A stretch of DNA of 35,363 nucleotides from contig JAVECS010000033.1 in the NCBI GenBank assembly GCA_051942165.1, positions 1-35,363 of the forward strand, in the 5' to 3' direction. The translations under genes and the position numbers were made by a program. Below, in pieces: positions 9,291-31,497 of this stretch. Under the pieces are notes generated by a model. The model made no database searches and was not told the origin of the DNA. It saw only the letters and a list, made by a program, of their open reading frames with translations. Position 1 is the first letter of the stretch; the number at the start of each line of letters is the position of its first letter. This stretch comes from Circinaria calcarea (taxonomy: Eukaryota).

Positions 9291-10127
9291 CGCTTCGCTT
9301 CTTTCCGTCGTAAGTGTTCTGGCAGGCGGCAAAACGAGCCTCCAGCTTGCAAGGTAGAAGGTTAATTGTCTGTTGGCTATAGTACCATTGGGCTCAGAAG
9401 CATGTATCGGTCTATAGGCTAGGTTTACCAGTACCCATTGGGAAACGGGCGGAAATACTCTCCTCCTAGCCCGTTGCGGCTGCCTACAAGTTATTAGGCA
9501 AAGGCATATCTGGCCAACTTGCTGCAACATTCACTCACGATAACACATCATTTGCTGTGAATGGGTGACTGGGATTGGAGACATCAAGGCATAGGATAGG
9601 CATTGCTACACTCTTGTTTCATAGTATGGCTTTGACAGCAGGCAAGGATGCCCTGAAAGAGAATCAAGAGGATCAAGAAAATGTCGTGCGCGTGATCTCG
9701 AAAAGGCTGGAGGCACAGTTCTGCATTTTCCGGTGTCTCGCCGCCTTCAGAGAGAATACCAGACCCATGGCTCAATCTAGACACACAAAGTGGTGTGAAA
9801 GTCAGCGATCCCATTGCCAGTGCAGTATGCACCTGTACGGCGCGTTAAGGACTAACTTGGAGCCTCAGAGCTTTATGCCCCCGAAATACCTACGTGTAAC
9901 TCGAGACCGTGTCATTCTGGCGGTACCATACACTCACTGGCTCGCAGCTGAAGGATCCCTGCATGCTACTCCGTTTTGCTGCTTAAGGCGTACGGTAGAT
10001 TCCAAGTTTCTCTGGCCGAAGATCGAGCACTTCTTGATCGTGCAAGGCAAATTTGTTGACCTACCTCCTCCATTTTCTATTCTGCGGGGGTCAGTTCTTC
10101 CTGGCAAGGAATATTCCGACAACAAAC

Positions 10128-11821
10128 ATGGAATCGATCAGGAATTCGAAAGCATTCCTTTTGGCTGGAGTTGTTACACTGTTCTACCTCATTTGTCGTC
10201 TCATCTATCGTCTCTATCTAAGTCCTCATGCAAAGATCCCTGGACTAAAGCTTGCCGCGTCAATGGACTGGTATGAACGGTACTATGATCTCGTACTCAA
10301 GGCTAGGTTTCCCTGGAAAATCAAGGAGCTGCATGAGACATATGGTATCAAACCATTGTCCACGAGACATGATACGCTCTTCTTACAATCTCCATAGGTT
10401 CAATTATCCGCATACGGCCATACGAGGTTCATATCAACGATCCAGCTTTCGGCGACACCTTCTTCGGTTCGGGCACTGAGAGAATGGACAAGTATGCGGG
10501 TCACCATGACCAGTTTGGTATGCCAGAATCTACCTTCAATACCATCGATCATGATTTACACAAACTACGGAGAGGCGCTATAGGCCCTTATTTCTCGAGG
10601 CGGAGTATTATCGCGCTCGAACTGATGCTGCAAGAAAAGATTGAAAAATTTTGCTCACGCCTAGAGGGCTTTAGGACGTCAGGGGAACCTGTTGATTTAC
10701 GCTTGCTGTTCTCGTGCTTTACTACGGATGTCATAACTGAATACGCTTTTCCTCATTCCTTCGACCTCCTCGATACACCTGACCTTGCACCGGCCTGGCG
10801 GGAAACGTTCTCTACGGGGCTTCGCAACTTCCACTGGTTCAAACATTTCCCCTTCCTGTGGAAAGTTCTGCGCTCGATTCCGGACAATTTGATGTTCAAA
10901 TTAGCTCCAGAGATGAAGCTCACTATTGACTGGGAACGAGGCAATCAGCGACTGATTCGACAGATCATGGATACGTATGATCCGAACGATAAGAAAGCTT
11001 CACATCCAACGATCTTCCACGAAATCTTGGGCAGCGATCTCCCTCCACAGGAGAAGAGCTATGAAAGGCTATGGCAAGAAGGGGAGTCTATGATCGGCGG
11101 CGGGGTAGAGACGATCGCAAACACCCTTAACGTTATTATGTTCAATCTCTTGACACACCCGGAGCAGCTTGCCTGCGTCAAGCAAGAGCTTCACACCGCG
11201 ATGCCTACATTAGGCTCACCGCCTTCATGGAGTTTGTTGGAAGGTCTACCATACCTATCAGCAGTCATCTCAGAAGGCCTCCGCACGGCGATGGGAGTTA
11301 CATCCCGCTTCATCCACGTTGCCCCGAACCGTGATCTCGTATATAATGCTTGGGTTATTCCCGTGGGAACGGCTGTTTTCATGAGCATTATGTTGCTTCA
11401 TCATAATCCTCAGGTTTTCCCTAAACCATATGCATTTCTTCCCGAGCGCTGGCTTAATGGTGATTTAAGCAGAAGCGATTTATTTCAGTTTGGGAAGGGT
11501 CCTAGGATGTGTGGTGGCCTTAAGTAAGTTGTTCCACCAAAAGCTTTCCCTTTGCAGCGAAACGGCAATGCTGACACTTAATTATACAGCCTTGCATACG
11601 CAGAACTTTACCTGGCTCTTGCATCAATTCTCGGGCGTTTCGACTTCTCTCTGTATGAAACCACGAAAGAGGATATTGATCCGGTTTGTGATGCGTGCAT
11701 GCCCATGCCAAAGGTGGACTCCAAAGGCGTGCGGGTTATGGTAAGGCGAGGGACTCGGAAAGCGTATAACGATATTTCGAGAGTAAAAAGATCCTTCCGG
11801 CCTATCCAGGTCATGTTTTGA
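10128..11821 (+). CDS. Cytochrome P450 of the CYP58/trichodiene oxygenase-like clan, about 524 aa, apparently intact
   Basis: Exons 10128-10344, 10398-11523 and 11590-11821. Motifs: N-terminal membrane anchor, KIPG..AA..WYE.YYD, IGGGVET (I-helix), SEGLR, PERW, FGKGPRMCGG (heme Cys) and NLAYAELY. Confidence 0.92.
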
Positions 11822-11997
11822 TGACGAAATCATTTCCGTTGAACACATAGAATTAAAACTTATTGTCGTTATAATATAAACGCTTTACTATTCAACGCAT
11901 GTGTTATTGATATATGCAAGATGTTCTTGAATCTAAGTACGCAGCCAAATTCGAGAAGCAGTGATCTTTGCTTTCTGAGACCTTCGTTCTTGACCAC

Positions 11998-13800
11998 TTA
12001 GCAAATACAATTATTTTTTCGCGCTGTTTTCAATATAACCTTCACTCCATTTGCGGAAGTACACACGAGCGATATCCCTTCAGTCCATGGGTCCGGATCT
12101 CTGCTCTCAATATATTCGAATACCTGACCTAGGCGAGTTATGGTATACGCGGCCTCGTTCATTGCGAGTTCCTCTACAACAACGAAGAATTAACCTGTTA
12201 GCATTGCCCTAGACATGAAGTACACTTCAAAGTCTACTCACGACCAATACAGATTCGGGGGCCCCCACTGAACGGCAAAAACTTCTATTCATTGTTAGCT
12301 TTCTTCATGCAGGCTCTGCTTAGAGGCTCTGCTTGGAGGCACTGGCATAGGTAATATTACCCAGGAAACCTTTTCACCCCTCCACCGTTCTGGGTAGAAC
12401 TCGTTGGCATCCTCGCCCCAAAGATCTTGGCGACGCTGCAGGGCAACTATCTGGTACTGAACCATTGTGTCTGCAGGGACAAATATGGGAGATTTGCCAT
12501 CAGGGCCACCGCCTACTGGAAGTACTGTATCTCTACATGCGATACGCGAGTTGCTAGGAACAACGGGGTAGAGGCGGAGAGCTGCAACAGCGCATGGTTA
12601 CCAGGTACTGAATGACACAAGAATACCATACCACCACATAGCTGAATGGGATAGCTACTTACCCTCTTTTATACAGTACTGAATGTATGGCATATCCCTC
12701 AGCTCTTTCAGTGTCGGTTCTTACCCGCCAAGTATTTCTACTTCATCACGCAGTCGCGTCCAGATACGAGGTCTCCGAGCGAGCACAAAAAAGAGATTGC
12801 TTAGCAAGGCAGCTGTAATATCGGGTCCGCCTCCAAACATAGTCAACAGTTCATCCCGAAGCACCCGCCTATCACTCGTCGCCTGGGCGAGCTCGTGCAA
12901 GAAGATACGCTTTCCGTCTTTCTCAGTCCCAGCACCTTCACTTCGCTGTTCCTCTTCTTTGGTTCTCAAGTTTTGGAATGCGATGGCTTTCTCGACATGT
13001 CGATCAATGAAACCATGTACTTTGTCCACATTCCTATGAAAATCTGGCATGTACGCAAATTTCGCAAGTCCGCCCATCTGCCACCTTTTCTCGATCCCGA
13101 TCTGTGCTTCATGGAAAGCCTTTACAAAGTCCGCTTCCATGGCATCAGGGTGGATCAGTGACAGGATGGATTCTCCAAAAAGAAACTCTGTTGCTATATC
13201 TGCGCTTAGCCTAAAAAACAACTCCCCCAGGTCCACCACTACGCCATCAATCGGCAGAGCCTCGATCAGATGGTCGACATGCACGCGAAACGTTGACAGA
13301 TCGCCCACCTGACTCCTTGTAAAACTTGGCTTGATCAACGCTCTAGAGTGTTCCCAACGTGCACCGTCCACCTGGATGATGCCGTGGCCCAGAAGCGGTT
13401 CAAAGGCATTCTTCCGCCGTGAGCCGATACTGTAATCTTCAAATTTTGTCGCAAGGACGGTCTTGATGTTCTCAGGCTCAATCGTGTTGACAACGGGAGT
13501 GAGGAAGAAGCGAGAGGAGAAGGTGGGCCCCAGAGTCTCGTACAGGTGATGGATGCGAGTGAGGTAAGTCTTGGATTTCAGAGCTGCGAAGGCATCGCGG
13601 ACGCCGTCAAGACCAAAGACGGGGTCGAGGTGGGGATAGAAAGGGGGTGGGAGGCAGTGGTACTGGGCGATCAAATCGCGCTTTTTGAGGCGGAGAGTCA
13701 GATATCGGTAAAGATAGCGGAGTGTGGGTAAGAGCACGAGGGCAAGAAAGAGGCCCGTGGCTATTTGCAACAATTTGGAGTGACTCATATCAACGAGCAT
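11998..13800 (-). pseudogene. CYP52-clan cytochrome P450 with one in-frame premature stop
   Basis: Four exons; exon 1 is 13800-12663. Motifs TIEPENIKTVLA, W.HSRALIKPSF, KEALRLYP, DTVLPVGGGPDG, YPERW and FSGGPRICIGQ. TAA at 12723-12721 interrupts otherwise continuous EILGG*EPTLKELRDMPYIQYCIKE. Confidence 0.85.
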
Positions 13801-14631
13801 ATCCAAGATGAAGACCAGATAAGCTGAGATTCTGTACGTGCCAGGAATTTTAAAGAATCTAGCACGTTTTACAAGTGGAAAAGGCTTTTCCTTTCTAGCA
13901 TTAATGCTGGGTTGGTGGTCTTTTTTCTTCGCCGCCTTAAAATCCTTGGTAGCAAAAACAACCTCGACGCATCCTAAGAATCAACTACGGGGCTGAGCCG
14001 CTTGTGGAAGAGGGGGGGCCTATTATCAGCTCCTAATTTTCATTCCCGCTGTTTTCTACGGCAACGAGAACTCAGCCCCCGTCTCGGTACCCAATAGGGC
14101 TTGACCGGGTGTATTACCTATTCCCCGATGTATGCATGCCCAATCCAGATACTTCTCTGGGCTACAGCACTATTACGCGGGTAAGCAGCGCTTCTACCGT
14201 GATTTACACGGGCTGACCTGCATTCCATCCCTACTTACCTACCTACCTACCTACTCGAGGACATTTACCTGCAGTAGCGATCCAGGGGGCGAAAAAGGTA
14301 GGCCTATAAGGAAAAGCGATCTTCGAGAGGCGTACATCTTAGCTTTGGTATTAACATGTGGGCTTACGGTACAACTCTTAACACGGGGTTGTGAATGTGG
14401 GGTCAAAGTGGGTCGAGATTCCAAGTGGGGCGGAGGATCTGTCATAAGTTCAAGTATATCGAACAACCGTGAGAAGTCAGTATGGCTCCGACAGTTATAC
14501 CGTGAAAAATTATTGGAATGTTTCACCGAGTAGAATGTACATCCCTTTAGCATATCAAATAAGCACAAAAGAACTTTACCAAAGAACAGCTTATTTGATC
14601 GATTTGTGAGCCAGCATGTTACAACGCCACG

Positions 14632-16159
14632 CTAAATCATAGGGGACTCGACGCGCACTGTTTTCCGAATACCGTTCCCAAAGGCATCCCGTTCCAAATC
14701 ATAATCTCGAGGTTTCGGCACGTCTGTACTAACCATTGCCAAAGCAGACCCTCCTTGGATTGAATCGTCGCACATCCGATGTTGCTCACGCTCACTCAGT
14801 TCCACATAGCTACCTTTGACAACAGATGGATCCCAGTGGTCCGTGGCCCATGGGTCTTTAGCCCCTTTCTCCCCTCCAGACCGCGACAAACTCGAAGGCT
14901 CGGTATTTGAGGTACCTTGAGCTTTACCCGGCCTTAATGAGGTGTAGACGTTTTTCAATTTGGGCATGTAATGGCGAAAGAACTGAGGTAAGACTGGCAG
15001 GCAGCCACAAAGAATGCCGCTCGCAATCTCGGTAGCCCTGTAAAACAGTCAGCATAGCAAGGCAGTTGAGGGAGTCTTGATGTTTCGGAAGTGCTCTCAC
15101 GTCCAAAGGCCCACTGGCGTCAAATCAAAAGTCACGTCGTCAGTTTTCGAGAATCCAACATTATTGACGAGCCGCATTATACTAGCGAAGCAAGCACTAA
15201 AAGCGATCATGTCAGTCAACGTCCAGAAAAGAATAAAGTCGGCTAATGACCCACAATAAGCCTGTTGCAAACACTGCTGATATTCCAAATTTTCTCTGCG
15301 TTGATAATTGCAGCTGCCAGATTTTTGCAATGGGTATCAACAGTATAGAGAAGTCAGAGATGATATTAATCACGGCTCCGACAATTAGTAAAGTAGCAAC
15401 ATCGACGCAATGCCCCGGTAACGTCGGATTCCAAACCTTTGCTCTTGGTGTACATTGAAAGATCTGAGCCAATATGACCGCAGAGTAAAAAAAGCCGTTG
15501 AACCAAATAATAAAGTGAATCAAATAGTAGGTCGTATTTTTATGGGTTGGTACAAAAATTCGCAGGTATTGCAACAAAATCGAGAGCTTAGTGATGAAGA
15601 TAAGGGGATTATAGAAAATCTCCTCGGTATATGCCAACTAGGGTTGTTAGTTTTATTCCTCCAAAGCAGACGTCCTTTGGTATACCTGAGCAAAACGTAT
15701 AACATGTAGCGAAGGCACATCCCATTGATGAACATTAGTTCCATAGCTTTTTCCTATGAGACGAATTGTAAGATAGCCCATAAACCCAATCTGTTAATTG
15801 TATGTTAGCTGAACATCCGTCGTTTTTTGGCAAACATCGTAAAGTGTCCCAGAGGTATAGCTTCGTACCCAGGCAATAAAAGAAGTATCTGCTCAAGGTT
15901 TATAATCAGGCTCAAAACTTTTCAAGTTGCCAATCTCAACGGAAGATAAATACGTACAATCTTCCCATCCATGGGATTTGTTGATGATAAATTTGGTATA
16001 TAGGCGAATCCAAACGAGAATTGTGCTGACGACTATGCAAACGACTGCAGTTGCGGTAACCTCCGCATGGATACTGTACGGACTAACGAAGTTGGGAATC
16101 ACGCCTGGTGGAGGCGGTAAACCTCCTATTACTGGTGCTGGCTGAATAGGAGACGACAT
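14632..16159 (-). CDS. Pth11-like (fungal rhodopsin-domain) integral membrane protein without CFEM, 403 aa, intact
   Basis: Exons 16159-15958, 15888-15869, 15790-15686, 15637-15255, 15196-15101 and 15037-14632, all in frame. Motifs GLPPPPGVIPNF, RLYTK..GWEDY, HQWDVP, TKLSILLQYLRIF, FQCTP..W, NIISDFSILLIPI and EIASGILCGCLP. Confidence 0.9.
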
Positions 16160-17403: not shown

Positions 17404-18926
17404 ATGCCAACTAAACAGGAGGTATATATATATACCAACTCTGGCTCTGAATCTGCATATGTATGAGCTGATATTTTTAGTCTACAACTGTTGGGGTTTC
17501 GGATTACAGTGAAAAAGGGAGCCTAGAAACAACACCATCATCATCGGAGGTATGGAGAAATCTCGATTCATGGCTATGGTCTATCGGTAAGCATTATGCA
17601 TTTTGGTGGCGGATCACAGGGCAAGCCTTGAGCGTCATGCTTCGAGAAGCTGGCTACGACCTTCACGCGCAATACCAAGGGCTCCTTTTTCATCTTCGTT
17701 ATATCGTACCTCACTTAGGGGCCCTCGCCCGATAGTCTGTGGAATGCCCAGCAGATAGAGGAGTTTCATGACCGGGGACTTCTCACCATTGGAGTATAGT
17801 TGGAGCTGGCATGCGGAAGGAACACCAAGAATTCGCTACGCCATTGAAGCTATAGGCTTACTTTCGGGGACATCCGCCGATCCTTACAACCAGGTAGCCA
17901 CTAGGGACCTTGTACAGGAACTCCAATTGACGTTCCCTACTATTAATTGGAAGTGGTTTGATTACTTCATGGAGGCTCTTTGCGGTTCCTTCCCAAAAGT
18001 TAAACGCGCAGGCCGGCAACTCCAATCTCCAAACCATCGATCAAGAAATTGGCAAAGGCTCAACTTTGGCCTCTGGAGACCTAAGTTCTGGCAGAGACAT
18101 CCCTAATGCAGGTGATTGGAGTCGAGTTCAAAGTGACCACTCTTCAGTTGGCTTAGCATTTGAGCTGCAGGAAGGAGTGATAGCAGCCAAAGCGTACTTC
18201 TCTCCTATCAAGGCACTTCAAACAAAGCAGTCGCTATTTGAGGTTGCATTTGCGAGCATAAGAAGCTTGGAAGCCAAGGGTTTCACTTTCCCAGCTCTAC
18301 ATTCACTATTTCACTTCATGACGATGCATCCTGAAGGATCGTTGCTGCAAACCATTGGTGTCGCCGTTGATTGTATCGACCCGGCCGATTCACGTCTCAA
18401 AATCTACGTTAGATCTCCCCGAACATCATCTGATAGCGTTCGTGCCGTTATGACTTTAGGGAACAAGCCTCTGAGCTCCCAACTACCCGATCATTTAGAA
18501 GAAACGCACCACCTATAGCGGCTTGTCTTGGGCCTTGAGGAGAATTTTGCTTCGAATAAAGAACTACCGCCAACGAAGCATCAAACTGCCGGGTTATTAT
18601 ATAATATTAATATCGGACCCGGCAATGCAGCTCTCGAGACGAAGCTATACATACCCGTAAAACATTATGGAGCGAACGATTTCGAGATCGCACAAAGCCT
18701 AATAATATACCTGAGAAAGCAAGGCAAAAACCACTATGCCGCCAGTTATATGCGTATATTGGAAGGTATTTGCATACATCGATCGTTGAGCGATGGCCTT
18801 GGTCTACAGAGTTACATTGCTTATGCAGAGAAAAACGGGTTACTCTCGATTATATCTTACTTATCGCCTGAGATATACCATAAAGCTCGACGGGTGGATG
18901 ATTTACGCTGTCAAGCTGGGCATTAG
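17404..18926 (+). pseudogene. DMATS-superfamily aromatic prenyltransferase pseudogene
   Basis: Motifs FWWRITG..L..ML.EAGYD, SFMTGDFSPLEYSWSW, IRYAIEAIG, DPYNQ, AKAYF, VDCIDPADSRLKIY, KLYIPVKHYG.ND and SYLSPE. Lesions: frameshifts near 17720-17740 and ~17995, and TAG at 17756-17758 and 18516-18518 where Trp is expected. Confidence 0.88.
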
Positions 18927-20047: not shown

Positions 20048-21944
20048 ATGGATCCTATACAGAAGCACGCTATCTATAACGAACGGAGACTGCATATTAT
20101 CTGCATTGGTGCTGGTGCGTCAGGCCTTTTGTTAGCTTACAAGCTGTAACGATGTATTCTGTAACAATGCCATGGTCCCGTCGGGCATTTCCAAGCTAAC
20201 TTCGATCATTAAAGATATACGAGAAGAATCCAGAACTCTCGGGCACTTGGTTCGAAAACAAGTACCCAGGGTGGGCCATTCTTGATCCTTGGGGATTTAT
20301 GTGATTTTGCTAACATCCCCTTCTTCTCTATTGATTAGATGCGCCTGCGATGTTCCTGCACATAATTACACCTATTCCTTTGAGACTAAGCACGACTGGT
20401 TCACTGTTTATGCCACGGGCGCTGAATTAAAGAGGTATTTTGAGTCTTTTAGTGAGAAGTACAAGCTGCAAAAATACATCAAAACTCAACACGAAGTCCA
20501 GAGCACCCGCTGGCTTGAGAGCGATGTTAAATTGAGCGTCTCTGTCCTTGATATGTCTACTGGACAAGTGAACGAGAAGAGCTGCCACATCCTCATAAAT
20601 GCAGGGGGTTATCTAAACAAGTGGGCATGGCCACAAGTCAAAGGGCTAGAGAAGTTCAGGGGAAAGTTACTTCACAGCGCTAACTGGGATGACTCGATAC
20701 GGCTAAAGGGTAAGAGAGTTGGCTTGATTGGCAATGGGTATGCTTTGCAGCTCGTCATGATCTTGCACGCCATATTTACACGTAACAGATCTTCTGGAAT
20801 ACAAATTCTCCCAGCTATCCAACCTATTGTTGGAGAACTCATCACCTTCATTCGATCGCCTAATTGGATATTACCTTCCATAAGCGCAGGTGAACAGCAG
20901 TCATACACAGAAGAAGATGTTGAGAACTTCAGAAAGCAGCCCGACCAACTGATGACACTTCGTAAGAGAAACGAAGCTGTGGTGAATAGTATTTTCAATA
21001 TGTAGTTGTATATCCAAGAGCAGTCTGTTCATACGTCTGACGAGTGGTGCCCCTTTAGCCGTTTACATACAAGGTACCACATTGCAAGACGACACAAGAA
21101 AGCAGTTGACCTGGGCCATGAAGCACCAATTGAGGAGCTCCACGCTCGCGGAAAAGCTCATACCATCTTTTGGAGTTGGATGCCGGCGAGCGACACCCGG
21201 TCTGGGATACCTAGAGGTCAGTACCTTTGCTGTTGGTGAACGTAATCTTGCGGTAACAAGAAGTCTGCAACAGAGCTTGCAACAAGAAAACGTCAAAGTC
21301 GTCCACAGTGGCGTGGTGGAGCTCACAGAAAACGGTTGCAAATGCGAGGATAGGAACGAATATGAGACTGACGCGCTTATCTACGCTACTGGCTTTGATA
21401 CCTCGTTCCAACCGCGATTTCCCATTATCGGCTCCGAGGGTATCAATCTCCAAAAGGCTTGGGCAGAGGTACCCGAGTCGTATCTTGGAATCGCGGAGCC
21501 GGGGTTTCCAAATCTGCTCATGTTCCTTGGGCCACACTCTCCCGTGGGCAACGGTCCAACCTTGGCAGCCATCGGTAAGTCCCTGCACTGGTTGGGCAAC
21601 TCATTTCGCATGTTAATCTGAACGGGAGATCATTAGAGACGCAAGCAGATCATATGCTTATGCTAATCGATCGTTGGCAAACCGAGAACATCCATTCTTT
21701 CGCTCCCAAGCGCGTCGCGGTGGACGACTTCATGGAGCACGCCCGTCAATTCATGAAAACGACCGTCTGGGCAGACAGCTGTAGGTCTGGGCACAAAGGC
21801 CACAGCGTCAATGACCGCATTCCGTGTCTCTGGCCCGGCAGCACGCTTCACTACATCGAAGCGCTCAGGGAGTTGCGAGCGGATGATTGGGATATTCGGT
21901 ATAAGGGTCACAAGGTACACCGCCCGACTATTGTGAAGCTATAG
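20048..21944 (+). pseudogene. Baeyer-Villiger/FAD-dependent monooxygenase (StcW/cyclohexanone monooxygenase-like) pseudogene
   Basis: Motifs ICIGAGASG, YEKN...GTWFENKYPG/CACDVP, BVMO fingerprint FRGKLLHSANWD, GLIGNG/SSGIQ, GCRR.TPG.GYLE, ATGFD and WPGSTLHY. Lesions: TAA at 20147-20149, an intron donor reading ATATGT at 20998, and loss of homology after DWDIRYKG (~21908). Confidence 0.88.
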
Positions 21945-22734: not shown

Positions 22735-23520
22735 TGGAACGTGGAAGCAAGTCTTCTGTGGGCGTCAACGCTCCCACCAGTGCACCACACCACCCAACAC
22801 TATTAGTGTCAGTATGGGGTAGCTTACACCACATTACACTGCCGGTGGAGTTATTGAGGAGTAAAGTAACACTGCATTCTACACTGGCAGTGTAGGGGTT
22901 CAAGCACAACATTATTAATATAATATACCATGTATAAATTTTCAAACCGGTAGAGAATTTATGGCTTCCGGGAAGAAGAATTTTCAAATTATGTACATAA
23001 ATAAAACCCCCCTGGAAAAACCAGGTACCCTAGGCTCTACGGAGTATTTAGGTAATAAATGTCGTTTGGAAATTTTTATACAAAAAACACCAACACCATA
23101 TATGCTCAAAAATTTCTTCCTTTCGTCATATTGTTATTGAAATCCTGTAAATTAATGGTCTTCCAAACTTTTGATTTTTACTTCTTTCTATACGTAGTAC
23201 TGCAACCAAACGAATAATAAAGATTTTAAAAGAGGGGCCGCATTTAACCCAAGTCACTACGATGCTATATTCATGAAAAGTCTTTGGCAGCGTATATTGC
23301 TGGGAGCGTTTGTATATTATAATAGGGGCAGAATAGAACCCCCCTTGCTCTAGCCCCCTGCGGGTCTCATCCGTCCTAAGAGAAAGGAACCTGATGAATG
23401 TTGAAAATAGCCTAATTTCACACAGAATTTGGTTCCCGATTTTCAAGCAACGGTTCCCGTAGAACATATGCAAATTAGGACCGTCTTACCGAGATAGAAG
23501 CTCTATAGATGCTCTACCTA
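22735..23520. other. AT-rich non-coding block following the GNAT breakpoint (possible degenerate transposon-derived DNA)
   Basis: Visibly more AT-rich than its flanks, especially 22900-23320, and it starts where GNAT homology stops. No transposase motif or terminal repeat was recognised. Confidence 0.3.
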
Positions 23521-23620
23521 GTTATCTCGCAAAAATGCAGCGAGGTTTCCTAATTTTCCAAGCCCCCAGCTACGCCAATCAAAAAAGTTTTCGTACCGTC
23601 CCGATCTTCTTCCTCCAAAA

Positions 23621-26600
23621 TTACCACGCTCGACCTCTACCTTGGTCGTAATCTGCTAGTCGTAGCTCCTGCGTACAGTTAGTATTGTATACCGACATCC
23701 AGGGGAGGTTAGGGTGTTCACTTCAAAGGAAAGTCCTTTGTACCTTTCCATAGCGCTAATGCTTTGGAAGTTATCAATCTGGGAACTGTTAGGCGCATCG
23801 CTTTCTCTGTAAGCTTGGAACGGAACGCTACCGGTCCCTTGCAAGCCACCGTGTGATCTAGGTTTGGTACTCTTGAGACCTCCGAATAATCTAGGAATGT
23901 CTTCTCCCCCATTCACGGCTGGTTTCGCTGCCTGCGTAACCCAAGGTGCTGCGAACTTGTAAGGACTGCTACTCTTTCCGTCCACGCTAGATTGCGTAAA
24001 GAGCGCACCACTGAACAAGCCTCCCTGGCGGATTTCCTCATTTGAATTTCCGAAGGAGTTATCACCACCAGAGGATGTCTCATAAGTAGATGACGTTTTG
24101 TCAAGACTGGACCCTTTAAATATGGATGAAGCTGTTGGGAGGACTGTAGATTTCCCTGGAGGAAGCGGACTGAATAACGTTCCAAAACTCGTCCCGCCAT
24201 CGGCTGACGCAAACAGCGCAGGAGGAGCAGGTGACGCGGTAGAGGAGTTAGAAGGTGATGTTGTTTGTGACTTCATCTAAAAGTTAGTGCGGTGATCCTA
24301 CCAAATATATAATAAGTCATTCTAGGCAATCACCTTGGTATTGGCGGACGCTTTCATCTTCTGATTCACTGCTATCACTGTAGTTAGTTTAGAATTAAAA
24401 ACAAATGCAACTCCATAGTATCATACTAATTGGTCGTCTGCGGACGTATCGCTTGCAGGTTTGCAACCCTGCCTCAAGGACCTTCAGTTTCTCCGTTGCC
24501 AGCTGTCGTTCGTTTTGAGCTTCCTCGGGTTCGGCTGCGATCGTCGTAACGAGATTATCATCCATATCCATGATATTAGCTGGCGATAGGATTTCCAGCA
24601 AGCCTTCCATGAGGCAATTCTCGATTGCCAAAGAAGCTATGTTGTCGATCAGGACTTTCAGAGCAACCTACGTAAACATACTTAGTATCACAGTGTCCGC
24701 GCAACCTCATACCTTGCCGAGGAGACAGCTACCTCCTGTGCACTAGAGATAGAATTGATTCACTGTGCTAGTATTCTTGATAGTTTTTAGATGTTGAATG
24801 TACATAACTCTATGCACCGGCGATGCAAGACCAATGCACAGAGGTAGTCGTGATGGACAAGGAGTGGGAAGGAGAGCCAGCCATACCTTATAATAAGCTT
24901 GCATGCAATCAACAATTTCTGAACAGGCATAAAGATCCATATCCTCCTCGGTCCGATGAGTTAATGAAGAGATGAGTTTGCGAACCGAGTCAGGCGATAC
25001 GATAGATCCAAGGTCGATGTTCATGGGCGGGGTTTGCGGGTTAAAGCCGTAATGGGCATATAACCTTTGAGTCATGTCTTTTTCAGATCGTTCTTGGCGA
25101 GCTTTCTGAATAGTATCGGTAAAATAGTGATTATATGTCACAGGATGGCCTCTCCGGTGCGGTGCGAGAATCTGTTCGAGCTTGCTGTTAAGCTGCGAAA
25201 GCTTTTCCCTCATAAACGGATCGATGACCTGTGCTTGAAGTGAGGCACATGTTCCATCATCAAGCAGTGTAGATAGGACAAGCTCCAGTAGTGTCTTTGA
25301 GGCTTCCCAGATCTGTTGGATATGCTCCCCGGCAAGCACTTGCCACGGTTCCGCTTGTACGTAGAATAGATCACTGATCAAAAGAGGGTTGAAAGTCCCT
25401 GGAAGTTCCCGTCCACGGTTCCTTTTCATCATGTTGCTTACCTCACGGATGTAGTCTGACCGGGATATCTCTCGAGGTCGAGGTACGTTACTCGGCAAGT
25501 AGGGTGTTCTATTAGACTTGAGATTGTCGCTGGTGTCATCTATGATGTCTAACCGGTGACCGTTCGTAGCCATCAAAACGGAGAACTCAGTGTTAAGATT
25601 CTGGATAACGGCGCGAAGTCGCTTGGAATAGCCTTCGTCTGAAGAGGAATCACCAAAGAAGCTATCACTGTAATCGCCATCGGTAGCTGCCTTCACAAGT
25701 GATTGAAAACGCTGACTAGTGCGCATGAGAAAGGTTCTCTGCTCCTTCACCGATGCCCGGCTTTTACCCAGGTGAGACAGGCGGTGTTCGCAATCTTTGA
25801 TTCCGCGCTCGATGTCATCAATAAGTGCTGGCAGTTCTGTGGTGATATGTTCGAGTAGAACCCTGCTTAGGCGTCCTCGCAGCGAGTCAATGCCGACAAT
25901 TTTCCGAGGAAGTGCTTGCCAAACCCCTTGAGCGAAAAATGCGGTCTCAGCCTCGTCCCGCAGTGCTGATGATACGTCCTTGGTGTCAAAATCCCGATTC
26001 CTTAGCACATGCCAACCTAGGTGGAATTTGATATTGTCGTTCTTTGCAAGCTCCAGAAACGTGAGCTCGCTATTTGACCCAGGATGAAGAGTATCGGGCT
26101 TTGTGATAACCCCCAGCGTCCTCGAGCCTTCGGGGTCGACGGCTCGCGCCATTGTGAGAACGATCTGGTTGGAGATATCATTTTTAGCTGTAACAACGGT
26201 CAGAATGATGCTTCTTTGGTTCTCCATGTAGCTCTTGACAAGCTTCGTGACAAGTTTTACATCAGCCTCCGTTTGCTGTTTGCCCTCCGAATGGATGATC
26301 CCAGGTAGATCGACGATGGTCAGTTGGGGTAGATTCGGACCAGATATCTCAACACGTAGCACGTTGTCGCTAAATGCACTAGATTTCGATGAAAGGATTT
26401 CAGTCTGTGCTGCGTCGACCAGACCCGCGAACTGTTCTAGAGTCGTGTGGGGTGACTTGAAATTCGAAAGTCGCTTGCGTTCTTCGTCGTTGCAGCTTTT
26501 GCCCGGTATGATAGTAACACAAGCATACTCTACAGCTGCTTTACGGAGGACAACCTCCGTGGCGAAGCGGGTGCAGAGCTCATCTTTGGTGGGAAACTGG

Positions 26601-26791
26601 ACTCGGGACAAAGCTTCAAGGACAGAGCTTTTGCCGGATGACTGATCTCCACAGACAATTATTTGTGGAAGAGACACGTCAAAGTGACTAAGGCCCTGGG
26701 AGCGTAACCGATCAATATCGTTTAGAAGCTCTACTTGACCTTTCGATTCGAGGGAGTTGAGCAAGGTGCTGTCAGTCTCTGTTGTATTCAT
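23621..26791 (-). CDS. Mx-like/dynamin-family GTPase (GTPase-middle-GED) with a C-terminal FG-like tail and Nup98-type GLEBS motif, about 930 aa
   Basis: Exons 26791-24887, 24667-24427, 24377-24334, 24276-23722 and 23668-23621 total 2793 nt with no internal stop. Motifs G1 GDQSSGKS, G2 LCTRFAT, G3 DLPG, G4 TKPD, RGRELPGTFNP and GED YYKVALKVLIDNI. The tail ends FQSISAMERYKGLSFE/ELRLADYDQGR. Confidence 0.85.
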
Positions 26792-29470
26792 TTTCGGAGA
26801 TTTGCTGGGTGACTTTTCGACTTTGGAGGATACTAAAAGCGCGAACAATCTTGAGAGTGAAAGAGACAAGGAGGTGCTGTTAAGAGGAACGAAGGGAAAG
26901 CTTGATATGAAGCTTTCAATCTTCAATGATTGTGGGACGACAGAAATAAAACAAGAGGTAGAGTATCTCAGGATTGGCAGCTCGTTTCGCAAGGCTCTCA
27001 GGTGTTAATATCCATTGCGAGAGGTGCCTTTCACGCCACAATCTATTTCAGAGCTGTACGATCCCGGGGAGAATCAGAGCGTTTAACCCGTGCCACCAAC
27101 GGAACTCTCAGAACTCAAAGCCGGTCACCATGTATTCACATACCATTGGCTGCGTGCCATGTTGGTTGAATTTGACTGTTTAAGTTCAGTTGAATGTAAA
27201 ATGAACACTGTGGCTTATCTATCACGGCTTATTGTTGAAATTAGGTACGGATCGTGGGGAGTTAGAAATAGAGCAGCGGTAAAGGAAACGCGTTATGGTA
27301 CGGCGTCGGCCGCACGGACCCACATGACTTTCCCGTGGGGCTCTCAAATCTCCCAGCACCGATAATTGTATGGGCAGCCATTGGACTCGGGATAATTATG
27401 AGAAGACGAGAATAAAATAGGAAAGTATTGTGTTACACAACTTTGCCGACTTACGATAATCTCCGGTGGAGCGTTGAGATCTTATGACCCCACCGCTTCA
27501 CAGAGTACTTTGTACAGTCGAGGGAAATGAGGCTAGTATGATCTTGGCTACAGGCACGATACTGTTTGGAATGCAAACAAAGTCTGTCCCCAGTCACGCA
27601 GTTGCTATCATTACATTATTCTAGGGTACTTGACTTGAGAAATGGCTACAGCTAGCTGGTTAGACATCAACAGGTTAAGCCATATCAAACCCACGATATA
27701 ATCTGGTACCATTCCCTGTTCCCTTCTTCTCCCTTGCTATTTCATGATTGTCTAACTAATCTATCCTCCAAAATCACTAGCTTTGCCCGAGTCTCAGCTC
27801 TCGATACAGAAACACTAAGAACCTTCCGGGCGTCCCTACCTTTCTCATTGAAGTAATCACAATCCGAGAGCACCTGTCCAGTGGGACGGCAAGCTTTCCA
27901 TATTATACACATTAAGATACAAGACAGTCTCCGCAACATTGGGCAGTTTCATAATACCTCAGGGACCAACGGCGAATGGTGCCCTAGAAATGGCCAAGCA
28001 GAACATCGCAAAGCTAGAGAAGGGCATGGGAAAAAATACAACGCCCTTGCCAAAATGTAATTCCTAGAAGCAATGACTAGAAGGCAGGAAGCTAATATAC
28101 ATGGTGCTTTGAGGATTTAAGCGGTATATCGGGAAGATGAAGCAATAGTGGGTAGATTGGTAAAGAAGGGAAAGAAGATAAGCTACAAGAAAGGCAGTCT
28201 GATAGCGGCTTACATGGTAGCGAATCACGCGGGATACAGGATCTCCGAGGTGATGTATACTGTATGTCTGTGCCTCCATCCTAGGCTATTTATATCATAT
28301 GCCTCGAACCTATTCCTCAAAAATCTCAACAAATCACCCGGAGACGATATCCGGTGAGTACGGCCGCATCTGTTGTTTCACTTGGAATACGGTATCTCGT
28401 ACAACTCGAGAGTAAACGCCAAGGTCAATTAGATTACAAAACCTTTTCAGGGGTTGGAAAACTACCTCTAAATCCTGCTGCTAGGTTAAGGATAAAGGGC
28501 GGTCAAATATCCATCATGCCGAGCCTCGGTTCCAACCGAGGGGGGAGTGGCTCTAAAATTCAGGGTAGCATGGATGGTTAGGGTGCTGGGACATAGGTCA
28601 CTGGTCAAGTGCGCTGATCCATAGAGCAATAGCCTGCAGCAAGCTTATTCATACAGAATCTCCCGAACTGACGGTCTCCTTCATTACAGTTTCCCGGTCT
28701 CATCGACGCCCACGGAGCGGATCCGTTGAGAAGATTTGAGGTGTATCAGGCATGCAAAGGCTCTACGCTATAATCCTTATGCAGCACCATTTCTTAGCCG
28801 TACAATGTATGCCGTATCTGTGCATTTCTTTATGGCTTATATGACATTCGCTCGGGATTTGGAGAAGGTTTTCCGAGGCTGCGACCTCACATCCCCACAT
28901 AGCAGTGTGCATCTCATCTACGCCTTTAAAGCGCATAAAGTATGCGAAGAGGGATCCAATAATCAATTTTGACAAGGATGGTGTTAGTATCGAAGTTGAC
29001 GTGGATTCAGTTTGCATGCAGCATTTTGGTGCCACATGTGTATGTAGCGGGGGAGGAGCTGGGATAGCACGCTACGCCGTAAACAGTTAACAGTACGAGC
29101 TGTGGTTTGCGCTTTATCAACGGTTGGGAATGCCATTTTACCGGGCCAAGCGGGTGCATACTTTGTGCATGAGTTATTTTAAAGTACAGCCTCACCAAGA
29201 TTATCTTGTCATTAATCAAAATGATTTGTGTCGGTTTTTCTTTAAGTCGTAAGGCCCGTTTAGCCGAGTTTTTTAGACATAGGCGCATAGTTGTCTGGCC
29301 ACTACTCTGCAAAGATCCAAGGATAATCCCATAAAAAAGGTTATTATTTCATTACGACAGCAGGGATCATTATTGTACTAGCGGCTACTAGGTGTTGTGA
29401 CCGGGAATAATTATTTATTGGACCATTAAAAGGACGCACTGTTCTCTAGGACCATTCGCCTTCCGATAAT

Positions 29471-29979: not shown

Positions 29980-31497
29980 ATGGATAACTCCAGCTCCAAG
30001 CTTGTAGAAGGCTTGCCACCTTCACCAGGCGTGATTCCGAACTCTGTCAACCCTTACTCTCTTCAGTCAGGAATCATTGCAACTGCTGTGCTTTGTCTTG
30101 TTCTCACAACAACCTCCTCGGTCTTACGAGTATATACAAAGTGCTTCATTATCAAGTCCTCTGGATGGGAATATTGTACGCAACTGTGGCCCATCAATTT
30201 AGGGCCACCTGCTAACCTACGGGGCTAGATACTTTATATATCGCGCAGGTAAAGCCCCTTTATAAGTTTTCTCTAGTCAGCTAAAAATGGTTCCTTAGTT
30301 GGGTTACATACCAGTGGTCGCGGTCGGCCTGTCCACATTGAAATACGGCGCAGGTATTCATCAATGGGATGTACCGTTGGAGAACCTAATGCCCTTCGCG
30401 AAGGTATATATATTTCGACTTCCAATCAACTAGAGAATGAAATAGGCGAAAGATAACAAGACTGATGAAAGCCGTTAAATATAGTTGGGAATTGTTATGC
30501 AACTTTTATACCCGCCTGTGATATTCGTTACGAAACTGTCTATTTTTTTTACAGTTCATTCGGATCTTCATCCCTCACCGCTCCAGCAAATCGTTTTACG
30601 TCGTCCAAGCATTTATTTGGATTAATCTTCTTTGGTTTACTGCAGTGTTTTTGGTTACAGTGTTTCGATGCACACCAAGAAATAAGGCTTGGAAGCCACA
30701 TCTGCCCGGACGATGTGTTAACTATGATCTTTATATAGTTTTTACTGCTGTATTTGATATGATCTCGGATGTTTCTATGCTGTTACTGCCTATGGCCTGG
30801 ATTTGGAGGCTGCAGATGTCCCAGTCTCGAAAGTTAGGTGTTACTGCGGTTTTCGCTGTTGGTATATGGTATATCTCCTTCCCTTTTCATCAGCTTTAAA
30901 CGTATGATGGAGGTTGATATTAAGGCCGAGAGTTAACTTCTTATAGCGCCTGTGTTACTAGCATCCTACACCTGGTTTTTAGTATCGGAAACATTGGCAG
31001 CAAGGACGTAACATATACATTGGTCCAAGTGGGTTTATGCACGTACGTGGTTCTCTATATTTTAATGCTTCCTTTACGAAACAGCTCTACTCACAGTTCT
31101 TAGGACCGCAGAAATTGCCAGTGGCATCTTATGTGCGAACCTACCCGTACTGCCTCGTTTCTTTACCCACTTTGGCCCTAGAGTTGCAAGCCAATTTCGT
31201 GGTAGTTATGTGGGGAAACTCTTAGGCACTTGGACTAAATCTTCTGATGGCAAATCAGGAGGGCTTATAGCCTCCTGGAGTAAACCTCAAGAACAGTCAC
31301 CGAATGGCGGATATTTGGAACTGAGCGAACTCCGTATGCAAGATCAGCCGCTAAAAACTGGCACTACAGGAGTAACAGTCTCTCTGAGCAGAACGACTAC
31401 TGTGGAGGAGCGAGCAACACCCACAACCTACGATTTGGAAAGTTGCGCCTTGCCTGGAACCAGAGGGACAGTACTGCTTAACCAAAGGGGTGGTTGA
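29980..31497 (+). pseudogene. Second Pth11-like integral membrane protein; single +1 frameshift in a T8 run (pseudogene or sequencing error)
   Basis: Same five intron positions and motifs as 14632-16159 (GLPPSPGVIPN, GWEYY, HQWDVP, TKLSI, FRCTP, SDVSMLLLP, EIASGILCANLP). The T run at 30543-30550 has 8 T, but IFLQFIRIF needs 7. Confidence 0.8.

What the first reader, a model, noticed from the sequence alone, without database searches (positions are those of the whole stretch)
23621..26791. Mx-like dynamin GTPase fused to a nucleoporin Nup98/Nup116-type FG-GLEBS tail
Seen in sequence: the ORF track shows three separate ORFs, but introns 24886-24668, 24426-24378, 24333-24277 and 23721-23669 (GT..AG, each with a CTAAC/CTAAG-type branch site, phases matching) join them into one ~930-aa protein. 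After the GED comes a Ser/Thr/Gly-rich stretch with SFG, TLFS, SFG, GLFSG and LFGG motifs, then GTGSVPFQAYRESDAPNSSQIDNFQSISAMERYKGLSFEELRLADYDQGR. Established knowledge: this matches the GLEBS motif by which Nup98/Nup116/SonB bind the mRNA-export factor Rae1/Gle2, including the essential EE pair. Animal MxB acts at nuclear pores, and viral proteins (VSV M, SARS-CoV-2 ORF6) target Rae1-Nup98. Inference: this could be a dynamin targeted to the nuclear pore, or one carrying a Rae1-binding decoy or sensor, possibly in antiviral or non-self defence or in nuclear-envelope remodelling. It stays intact among pseudogenes, which hints at selection. I do not know of a characterised protein with this architecture, but similar unstudied fungal fusions may exist in databases.
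Basis: partly seen in the sequence, partly recalled or inferred. Interest (0 to 1): 0.92.

Follow-up and report, generated by a model that had tools for sequence, protein, structure and literature searches.

The report
Mx-like dynamin with captured Nup98 GLEBS tail
A fungal relative of the antiviral Mx GTPases is followed directly by a conserved piece copied from the nuclear-pore protein Nup98, namely the peptide that binds the mRNA-export factor Rae1/Gle2, and this piece is probably, though not provably here, spliced onto the GTPase as a tail.

Summary
The sequence features are real. On the minus strand, 26791-24427 encodes an Mx-like dynamin GTPase: Dynamin_N, Dynamin_M, and best sequence and fold matches to human MxA/MxB. 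The public 725-aa model stops at 24395. A further 119 nt downstream lies a 185-codon ORF plus a 16-codon exon. Once the 53-nt intron 23721-23669 is removed, these match the GLEBS (Gle2/Rae1-binding) motif of true fungal Nup98-96 genes: 56.5 bits against at most 7.7 for 2000 shuffles. The match runs unbroken across the splice junction and includes the EE pair. The segment is a truncated, FG-depleted copy of the nucleoporin N-terminus that ends just after GLEBS. Related ORFs with the same intron position and shared indels appear to sit on the same contigs as 94%- and 90%-identical dynamin orthologues, so the segment is a maintained coding sequence, not debris. Not shown is the fusion itself. The two small introns (24426-24378, 24333-24277) that would join GED to tail rest only on splice signals, 46 in-frame GT-AG paths exist, and no fused protein was found in the databases. 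I put the fusion at about 0.5. The rivals are a separate GLEBS-only gene or a relic. Either way it is a new variant of known kinds.

The parts
24887..26791 (-). Exon 1 (635 aa): G domain with intact GDQSSGKS, DLPG and TKPD motifs, plus the middle/stalk region of an Mx-like dynamin
   Evidence: Dynamin_N 5.3e-36 and Dynamin_M 7.2e-21. Best PDB hits are Mx1/Mx2 at 1e-33. Motifs read from the translation.
24668..24886 (-). Intron 1, 219 nt (GTATGG ... TACTAAG ... TAG)
   Evidence: Removed in the public 725-aa model P0125, which equals exon 1 plus exon 2 letter for letter. Annotated homologues read AYYKVALK-type sequence straight through.
24427..24667 (-). Exon 2 (80 codons + 1 base): last stalk/BSE helices (GED)
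   Evidence: Pfam GED is co-linear but sub-threshold: E 0.051, 14.2 bits vs cut-off 21.4, residues 623-704 of P0125. The AF2 model has helices 615-658 and 683-710 and is ordered up to about residue 710.
24378..24426 (-). Putative intron 2, 49 nt (GTATGA ... AACTAAC TACAG). It contains the stop at 24395-24397 that ends the 725-aa public model, so retention would give the tail-less form
   Evidence: Signals only: GC 0.29 and a CTAAC branch site. Not verified by homology or RNA.
24334..24377 (-). Putative 44-nt micro-exon (15 codons once joined). It contains an internal ATG with A at -3 that could start a separate tail gene
   Evidence: Required for the frame: joining donor 24426 directly to acceptor 24277 runs into a stop (my reading of the sequence).
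24277..24333 (-). Putative intron 3, 57 nt (GTGATT ... CACTAAC TTTTAG)
   Evidence: Signals only: GC 0.35 and a branch site. The TAG of the acceptor is an in-frame stop directly before the ATG at 24276.
23722..24276 (-). Exon 4 (185 codons): Ser/Thr/Gly-rich, FG-depleted remnant of a nucleoporin N-terminus, followed by the first ~40 residues of GLEBS
   Evidence: Open by chance in 15 of 200,000 shuffles. Co-linear with residues 66-219 of the L003 Nup98-96 protein, E 6e-9. Orthologues are P0121 and P0124.
23669..23721 (-). Intron 4, 53 nt (GTGAAC ... TACTAAC TGTACGCAG); it splits the EE pair of GLEBS
   Evidence: Alignment to unsplit GLEBS of L001-L004 runs across the junction. P0124 and P0121 read through into an intron at the same point, and P0124 ends with the same out-of-frame RSYD-stop.
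23621..23668 (-). Exon 5 (15 codons + stop): second E of the EE pair, the LRLADY..GR end of GLEBS, four more residues, then TAA

Best explanation
The gene is a fungal Mx-like dynamin GTPase (the 'MxF' kind). A partial duplicate of the 5' part of the Nup98-96 nucleoporin gene has been captured at its 3' end. The copy kept the GLEBS peptide, which is the hairpin that docks the WD40 mRNA-export factor Gle2/Rae1. It lost most FG repeats and everything after GLEBS.

Shown:
- The GTPase is intact and Mx-like.
- The downstream segment is a true GLEBS homologue with its own spliced intron.
- It is kept as an open reading frame next to the dynamin in this fungus and, by contig-length match, in two relatives.

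Inferred:
- Two small introns (24426-24378 and 24333-24277) splice the segment onto the GED, giving a 930-aa protein whose C-terminus is a Gle2/Rae1-binding peptide. Retention of intron 2 would give the 725-aa tail-less form.
- The C-terminal helix of Mx-type proteins lies in the bundle-signalling element (BSE) beside the N-terminus (established Mx structure, recalled). The tail would therefore project from the same end of the molecule as MxB's pore-directed N-terminal extension.
- Because Gle2/Rae1 binds Nup98's GLEBS with the same surface, the tail would load the GTPase with Gle2/Rae1 away from the pore. That would either recruit Gle2 and its RNA-binding surface as a cofactor, or display a copy of the Rae1-Nup98 surface that viral proteins are known to attack.
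For: GTPase:
- Dynamin_N 5.3e-36 and Dynamin_M 7.2e-21.
- The nine best of 43 PDB hits are Mx1/Mx2.
- AF2 model has mean pLDDT 80.7. Foldseek ranks 1-3 are MxA/MxB, E 8e-23, TM 0.75 normalised to the target.
- Fungal Mx-like 'MxF' genes are described in PMC11789081 (passages read).

GLEBS:
- tblastn of the spliced protein hits all 4 of 4 JGI loci across the junction: 51-77 aligned residues, 52-66% identity.
- L003 is a full Nup98-96: Nup96 2.6e-103, autopeptidase S59 2e-47, FG repeats 9.5e-21.
- A profile of the four Nups scores the spliced protein 56.5 bits at residues 871-926, against at most 7.7 bits for 2000 shuffles.
- That same profile's four best PDB hits are the Nup98 GLEBS chains of Rae1 complexes (3mmy_B, 7byf_B, 4owr_B, 7vpg_B), E 0.04-0.07.

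Maintained coding sequence:
- Exon 4 is open in only 15 of 200,000 shuffles.
- P0121 matches 27 of 40 aligned GLEBS positions and P0124 matches 22 of 40. Both share with the window the lost residue before QGTG and a two-residue-shorter loop relative to all four Nups. They also share the same intron position.
- P0124's longest contig is 20110 nt, the same as that of P0001, a 90%-identical dynamin. P0121's is 4824 nt, the same as that of P0003, a 94%-identical dynamin.

Fusion:
- Only 119 nt separate the 24395 stop from the ATG at 24276.
- That gap consists of two AT-rich stretches (GC 0.29 and 0.35), each ending CTAAC..YAG, around a 44-nt piece that restores the frame.
- Of 46 in-frame paths, only this one has branch sites at both acceptors.
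- The ATG at 24276 has T at -3 and sits directly after an in-frame TAG.
- Residues 713-725 of the 725-aa model, which are the intron read-through, have pLDDT below 50.
- Long post-GED tails are normal in this family: 8 of 16 homologues whose GED end I could anchor carry 55-186 residues after it.
Against: - The public gene model stops at 24395 and has no tail.
- No fused protein was found. 0 of 120 listed dynamin homologues carry a GLEBS-like pattern. 0 hits came from the 'longer' word search with the tail. Only two real relatives appeared among 1.84 billion representatives, and both are short ORFs.
- None of the 4 JGI GLEBS loci has a dynamin match.
- The donors GTATGA and GTGATT depart from the usual fungal GTRNGT (recalled consensus).
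- Frame compatibility is easy to obtain: 46 paths. Loose intron patterns are not enriched in the window.
- An ATG with A at -3 inside the micro-exon could start an independent tail gene.
- The tail evolves about five times faster than the dynamin: 68% and 55% GLEBS identity where the dynamin is 94% and 90%.
- P0121 is only 87 aa, so the FG part may be closed upstream in that relative.
- The Pfam Nup98_GLEBS model gave nothing for exon 4 alone. The spliced motif could not be submitted.
- Gle2/Rae1 binding is untested.
Confidence: 0.5

Rival explanations
1. The tail is a separate small gene that shares or overlaps the dynamin transcription unit. A protein of about 200-209 aa would start at the ATG in the micro-exon (eight codons, then intron 3) or at 24276. 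It would consist of a decayed FG stretch plus GLEBS and act as a free Gle2/Rae1 binder that tunes or titrates mRNA export.
For: - The ATG in the micro-exon has A at -3 and is in frame with exon 4 through intron 3.
- The public model ends the dynamin at 24395, with a C-terminus of family-typical length: 13 residues after the GED anchor, where other homologues have 4-30.
- The tail ORF is maintained and its intron conserved, which needs a function but not a fusion.
- Over-expressed Nup98 GLEBS alone mislocalises Rae1 and blocks poly(A) RNA export in HeLa cells (passage of PMC3783196).
Against: - Only about 40-119 nt lie between the dynamin stop and the candidate starts, which leaves no room for a terminator plus a promoter (inference from usual fungal gene spacing, recalled).
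- Neither candidate start appears to be conserved. P0124 and P0121 begin at different aligned positions.
- It does not explain intron 2's donor, branch site and acceptor, which straddle the dynamin stop.
- No separate tail protein of 113-361 aa is on record, although the dynamin model from the same contig is.
Confidence: 0.25
2. The tail is a non-functional relic. A partial Nup98-96 duplication landed in the dynamin's 3' region and is decaying, and its open frame and splice signals are leftovers.
For: - FG repeats have largely gone: 3 per 150 residues here, 10 per 140 in P0124, and 21 per 178 in a real Nup.
- Divergence is fast relative to the dynamin.
- P0121 is a short 87-aa ORF.
- The segment is unannotated in the public record.
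- At least one neighbouring gene (DMAT) carries an in-frame stop.
Against: - A 185-codon open frame is expected in only 7.5e-5 of shuffles, and a 202-aa ORF is kept in a second species.
- All alignable indels between the three tails are in frame.
- The intron read-throughs have diverged with length changes, while branch site and acceptor are kept.
- Positions invariant in true Nups (GTGxVPF, QSIS, Y, the E before the junction) are also kept in all three tails.
- The copy ends four residues after the GLEBS boundary.
Confidence: 0.13
3. The GLEBS resemblance is a chance match in low-complexity sequence.
For: - Exon 4 alone finds no Pfam family and no PDB chain.
- Two of the four representative hits (P0122, P0123) are unrelated repeat proteins.
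Against: - 56.5 bits against at most 7.7 for 2000 shuffles.
- 30-32 of 54 aligned positions are identical to four real Nups, and the match continues across a predicted splice site.
Confidence: 0.01

Closest known systems
Human MX2/MxB (and MxA)
   Same: Best sequence and fold matches of the GTPase part. MxB is an Mx-type GTPase whose disordered terminal extension links it to nuclear-pore and FG-nucleoporin biology. MX2 is reported to form FG-nucleoporin-rich condensates that mimic pores (bioRxiv 10.1101/2023.06.22.545931; I saw only the search listing and the start of the abstract).
   Different: MxB's extension is N-terminal and is not derived from a nucleoporin (recalled). Here the appended piece would be C-terminal and is itself a copy of a nucleoporin segment, the Rae1/Gle2-binding GLEBS. 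No antiviral role is known for any fungal member.
Fungal Mx-like proteins, MxF1/MxF2 (PMC11789081)
   Same: Uncharacterised fungal dynamin-superfamily proteins that group with animal Mx and vary in copy number (passages read). The window's gene has thousands of fungal relatives: 6042 with E <= 0.001 among 7999 candidates scored.
   Different: The paper's main text never mentions a nucleoporin (0 occurrences). None of the 120 listed homologues has a GLEBS-like pattern, and none of their tails resembles this one. Placement in MxF1 or MxF2 was not tested here.
Nup98 / Nup116 / Nup145N / SonB GLEBS with Rae1 / Gle2 / SonA
   Same: Homologous motif including the EE pair that makes the salt bridges to Rae1 (PMC3783196 passages). 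Co-linear with the FG-then-GLEBS order at the nucleoporin N-terminus.
   Different: No autopeptidase S59 domain, no Nup96 part and no FG-repeat Pfam hit. FG density is about one sixth of a real Nup, and the copy ends four residues after the motif. It has its own intron inside the motif, which the four reference loci lack. The SonA/SonB names are recalled.
Bub1 / BubR1(Mad3) GLEBS with Bub3
   Same: Shows that a GLEBS hairpin can work as a portable WD40-docking module outside nucleoporins (recalled, not tested here).
   Different: The window's motif is of the Nup98 type by sequence. Partner specificity (Gle2 versus Bub3) is untested.
Integrated decoys of plant NLR immune receptors
   Same: Concept only: a defence protein carrying a copy of a host target that pathogens attack (recalled).
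   Different: Different protein families, and no evidence here that anything attacks Gle2-Nup98 in fungi.

Membership tests
Dynamin superfamily, Mx-like branch (MxF) | Large GTPase domain with G1-G4 motifs | tested here: met
   Dynamin_N 5.3e-36 over profile positions 1-167 of 168. GDQSSGKS, DLPG and TKPD are present in the translation.
Dynamin superfamily, Mx-like branch (MxF) | Middle domain/stalk | tested here: met
   Dynamin_M 7.2e-21. The AF2 model (pLDDT 80.7) has long helices from 301 to 658.
Dynamin superfamily, Mx-like branch (MxF) | GED / C-terminal BSE helix | tested here: inconclusive
   Pfam GED E 0.051, 14.2 bits, below the 21.4 cut-off, but co-linear over profile 6-87 of 92. The model has helix 683-710, and full-length Foldseek alignments to MxA/MxB cover 695-716 columns.
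Dynamin superfamily, Mx-like branch (MxF) | Closer to Mx than to Vps1/Dnm1/Mgm1 | tested here: met
   By ranking only. PDB sequence hits: Mx1/Mx2 1e-33, Vps1 3e-26, Drp1 2e-25, Mgm1 5e-17. Foldseek ranks 1-3 are MxA, MxB, MxB.
Nup98/Nup116-type GLEBS motif | Sequence homology to the GLEBS of bona fide Nup98-96 proteins | tested here: met
   56.5 bits to a profile of 4 Nup98-96 GLEBS regions, against at most 7.7 for 2000 shuffles. tblastn E 3e-13 to 3e-11. The profile's top four PDB hits are Nup98 GLEBS chains.
Nup98/Nup116-type GLEBS motif | Conserved EE pair that salt-bridges to Rae1/Gle2 | tested here: met
   The pair is present only after removal of intron 23721-23669, with one E on each side. 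Its role is taken from passages of PMC3783196.
Nup98/Nup116-type GLEBS motif | Pfam PF21240 Nup98_GLEBS above the gathering score | tested here: inconclusive
   Exon 4 alone gives no hit at E <= 1, and the spliced motif could not be handed to the tool. A genuine fungal Nup98-96 (L003) also reaches only 12.6 bits against a cut-off of 27, so the model is uninformative for fungi.
Nup98/Nup116-type GLEBS motif | Binds Rae1/Gle2 | not testable with these tools
   No Gle2 sequence from this organism was available, and the spliced peptide cannot be submitted to the complex predictor.
Nup98-96 nucleoporin (as a protein family) | Dense GLFG/FG repeat domain | tested here: not met
   3 FG in the 150 residues before GLEBS, against 21 in 178 in L003. 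No Nucleoporin_FG hit.
Nup98-96 nucleoporin (as a protein family) | Autoproteolytic S59 domain and Nup96 part | tested here: not met
   tblastn of the 1956-aa L003 protein against the whole window finds only the FG/GLEBS stretch. The reading frame stops at 23621.

The most novel reading that the evidence does not exclude
The spliced 930-aa protein is an Mx-type immune GTPase with an integrated decoy. Its C-terminal GLEBS loads Gle2/Rae1 and so rebuilds, on the GTPase, the composite Rae1-Nup98 surface that viral proteins attack in animals (VSV M, sarbecovirus ORF6, herpesvirus ORF10). A mycovirus or other invader that targets mRNA export would then be captured by, or would trigger, the oligomerising GTPase. 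It would be the first case of a dynamin-family protein built from a nucleoporin module, and an independent fungal parallel to MxB's link with the nuclear pore.
Probability: 0.12. Interest if true: 0.88.

Novelty: new variant of a known kind. Interest (0 to 1): 0.62.

Why it matters
Mx proteins are classic antiviral GTPases. Their fungal relatives (MxF) were recognised only recently and have no known function (PMC11789081). In animals, MxB works at or near nuclear pores, and several viruses disable the Rae1-Nup98 GLEBS complex (titles and abstracts listed).

A fungal Mx-like gene that has captured exactly that GLEBS peptide, and kept it in at least three lineages, gives a concrete and testable partner (Gle2) for an otherwise uncharacterised family. 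If the fusion is real, it is an example of a defence-type GTPase acquiring a piece of the machinery it may guard.

Even if the tail proves to be a separate gene, a GLEBS-only paralogue of Nup98 would be a natural version of the dominant-negative GLEBS fragment used experimentally (PMC3783196). The segment is also missing from the public annotation of this contig.

Tried and rejected
- Whole genome of the window: none is held. The organism's own Nup98-96 and Gle2 could therefore not be examined.
- RNA evidence: no RNA holder was listed by the look-up of sequencing runs.
- Exon 4 alone gave nothing against Pfam, against PDB sequences at 185 aa and 47 aa, in the word-index search at near lengths or at longer lengths.
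- The ESM Atlas returned only plant low-complexity clusters, with recognition 1523, below the useful range.
- The representatives search gave two spurious repeat proteins, P0122 and P0123, beside the two real relatives.
- Genome-contig scan with the dynamin: one bacterial locus at 33% over 74 residues, irrelevant.
- Earlier findings of this scan: nothing by place, sequence or words.
- Papers holding both 'GLEBS' and 'dynamin': 2, both irrelevant by title and abstract. This is the only search behind the statement that the architecture is not in print. Subscription journals are not covered.
- Similarity of this tail to the post-GED tails of other family members: none.
- My first attempt to translate the L003 nucleoporin used the wrong frame. 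It was redone correctly.
- Rejected as evidence: frame compatibility of the introns and the loose intron-pattern count.
- Considered and dropped: that P0124 is the relative's true Nup98-96. It shares the tail-specific indels with the window, not the canonical Nup form.
- Not attempted: a complex prediction with Gle2. No Gle2 sequence was available, and the spliced motif is not an unaltered window sequence.
Full report
**What is in the sequence**

On the minus strand there are three stop-to-stop ORFs: 24743-27004, 24395-24667 and 23656-24276. It encodes 930 aa and ends at a TAA at 23621-23623.

**The GTPase**

- Exon 1 (26791-24887, 635 aa) has Dynamin_N (5.3e-36) and Dynamin_M (7.2e-21). The G1, G3 and G4 motifs are intact.
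- Exon 2 supplies the last helices. Pfam GED is co-linear but below threshold: E 0.051, 14.2 bits against a cut-off of 21.4.
- Of 43 PDB sequence matches, the nine best are Mx1/Mx2 (1e-33 to 8e-30). Vps1 follows at 3e-26 and Drp1 at 2e-25.
- I built an AlphaFold2 model of the 725-aa form from a 48-sequence alignment. Mean pLDDT is 80.7, and the model is ordered up to about residue 710.
- Its three best Foldseek matches are MxA, MxB and MxB, with E 8e-23 and TM 0.75 on the target for 5gtm_A.
- Fungal Mx-like genes ('MxF') have been described as uncharacterised and variable in copy number (PMC11789081, passages read). The family is large: 6042 proteins with E <= 0.001 among 7999 candidates scored.
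- 'Mx-like' is therefore supported by ranking. I made no phylogeny.

**The public model**

A cluster look-up returned P0125, a 725-aa NCBI protein. Its source names it a hypothetical protein of a Circinaria calcarea MAG, on a contig of 35,363 nt, which is the window's length. It equals exon 1 plus exon 2 read through to the stop at 24395, letter for letter.

- The record's model uses intron 1 and has no tail.
- No protein containing the tail is on record, at near lengths or at longer lengths. The tail is therefore unannotated.

**The tail is a real GLEBS**

- Exon 4 alone finds nothing in Pfam or the PDB, because the motif is cut by an intron.
- A scan of JGI metagenome contigs with an alignment of the tail and two relatives gave four loci.
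- L003 carries a complete Nup98-96 gene: Nup96 2.6e-103, autopeptidase S59 2e-47, FG repeats 9.5e-21. L004 is similar.
- tblastn of the spliced 930-aa protein hits all four loci. The alignments run without a break across the exon 4/exon 5 junction, with 52-66% identity over 51-77 residues and E 3e-13 to 3e-11.
- A profile of the four nucleoporin motifs scores the spliced protein 56.5 bits at residues 871-926. The best of 2000 shuffled tails scores 7.7.
- The same profile's four best PDB hits are the Nup98 GLEBS peptides crystallised with Rae1, E 0.04-0.07.
- The EE pair that salt-bridges Rae1/Gle2 (PMC3783196, passages) is present, with one E on each side of the intron.
- Pfam's own GLEBS model is uninformative here. 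The genuine fungal nucleoporin reaches only 12.6 of the 27 bits required.

**Origin and state of the tail**

- It is co-linear with residues 66-230 of the L003 nucleoporin. Nothing else of a Nup98-96 gene is in the window.
- It ends four residues after the motif.
- FG repeats are sparse: 3 in the 150 residues before GLEBS, against 21 in 178 in L003.
- It is therefore not a nucleoporin. It is a truncated, FG-depleted copy of a nucleoporin N-terminus.

**Is it maintained?**

- Exon 4 stays open in only 15 of 200,000 shuffles.
- A search of 1.84 billion representatives gave two real relatives. P0121 is 87 aa, and P0124 is 202 aa with 10 FG in the 140 residues before GLEBS.
- Both read into an intron at the same point. 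P0124 ends with the same out-of-frame residues as the window's read-through. This requires the same codons at the start of exon 5, and the four nucleoporin loci use different ones.
- Both share tail-specific indels with the window relative to all four nucleoporins. They are therefore orthologues of the tail, not canonical Nups.
- Their longest contigs (4824 nt and 20110 nt) have the same lengths as those of P0003 and P0001. These are dynamin ORFs 94% and 90% identical to the window's. I take this to mean shared contigs, but I did not see the DNA.
- GLEBS identity to the window is 27 of 40 for P0121 and 22 of 40 for P0124. That is much lower than for the dynamin. However, the positions invariant in nucleoporins are kept, and the indels are in frame.

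**Is it fused?**

This is the open point.

For fusion:
- Only 119 nt separate the 24395 stop from the ATG at 24276.
- That gap is two AT-rich stretches (GC 0.29 and 0.35 against 0.49 in the exons), each ending in CTAAC..YAG. They flank a 44-nt piece that restores the frame.
- The ATG at 24276 has a poor context and directly follows an in-frame TAG.
- The read-through C-terminus of the 725-aa form is modelled at low confidence.
- Long post-GED tails are common in the family: 8 of 16 homologues whose GED end could be anchored have 55-186 residues after it.

Against fusion:
- 46 in-frame GT-AG paths exist, so matching phases prove nothing.
- A loose intron pattern is not enriched in the window (25 against 36 +/- 5.5).
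- Both donors are off-consensus.
- An ATG with A at -3 inside the micro-exon could start a separate tail gene.
- The public model is unfused, and no fused protein was found.
- If only intron 2 were spliced, the dynamin would end three codons into intron 3 (my reading of the sequence).

**Mechanism**

The GTPase and the GLEBS homology are shown. The rest is inferred.

- Gle2/Rae1 binds Nup98's GLEBS through one surface (PMC3783196). A GLEBS on the dynamin should therefore compete with pore docking, not use it.
- I therefore prefer two readings over simple pore targeting. In one, the tail loads Gle2 onto the GTPase as a cofactor. In the other, it displays a copy of the Rae1-Nup98 surface.
- Free GLEBS over-expression is known to mislocalise Rae1 and block poly(A) RNA export (same paper).

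**Context**

- The window carries a kinase, two P450s, a DMAT prenyltransferase, an FMO-like gene, an ADH_N fragment and two fungal-rhodopsin-domain ORFs.
- The DMAT pieces are co-linear, but an in-frame stop sits where one residue is expected.

**Verdict**

- Observation: partly confirmed.
- Interpretation: partly supported.
- Probabilities: fused Mx-like GTPase with GLEBS tail about 0.5, separate GLEBS-only gene about 0.25, relic about 0.13.
- Novelty: new variant of known kinds.
- Interest: 0.62.

Noticed in passing
window 17481-18923 (+): A tryptophan dimethylallyltransferase (DMAT) gene lies in four co-linear pieces covering Pfam positions 3-356 of 357. An in-frame TAG at 18516-18518 falls exactly where one residue is expected between profile positions 272 and 280. 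This looks like a nonsense mutation or an assembly error, not an intron.
   Followed up: partly
window 9569-13980 and 20286-21941: Two cytochrome P450 genes (10373-11527 on the plus strand; 12298-13980 on the minus strand) and an FMO-like gene flank the DMAT gene. The arrangement looks like a small secondary-metabolite cluster next to the dynamin gene.
   Followed up: no
window 15215-15637 (-) and 30522-30896 (+): Two ORFs with the fungal rhodopsin domain (PF20684, E 5.7e-36 and 5.6e-26), so two paralogues lie within 15 kb of each other.
   Followed up: no
window 23518-23655 (-): In another frame, overlapping and just past the tail's stop codon, a 45-aa ORF reads through an NFGG-containing stretch. 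It may be an out-of-frame remnant of the nucleoporin's FG region that followed GLEBS in the parent gene.
   Followed up: no
Proteins P0085, P0087, P0100, P0013, P0014, P0016 (post-GED tails): Several annotated homologues of this dynamin family carry 78-164-residue disordered tails after the GED that end in, or close to, a polybasic patch (runs of K). This is a recurring feature of unknown role, and none of these tails resembles the GLEBS tail.
   Followed up: partly
Proteins P0008 vs P0013, and P0027: ORF-style calls of two homologues diverge from annotated relatives a few residues after the GED and read like translated GTATG donor sites. This hints that an intron at the position of the window's putative intron 2 is older than the GLEBS capture. 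No DNA was seen.
   Followed up: no
L003 242-6109 (+); Pfam PF21240: Pfam's Nup98_GLEBS model scores a complete fungal Nup98-96 protein at only 12.6 bits against a cut-off of 27. Fungal GLEBS motifs will therefore be missed by routine Pfam annotation.
   Followed up: partly
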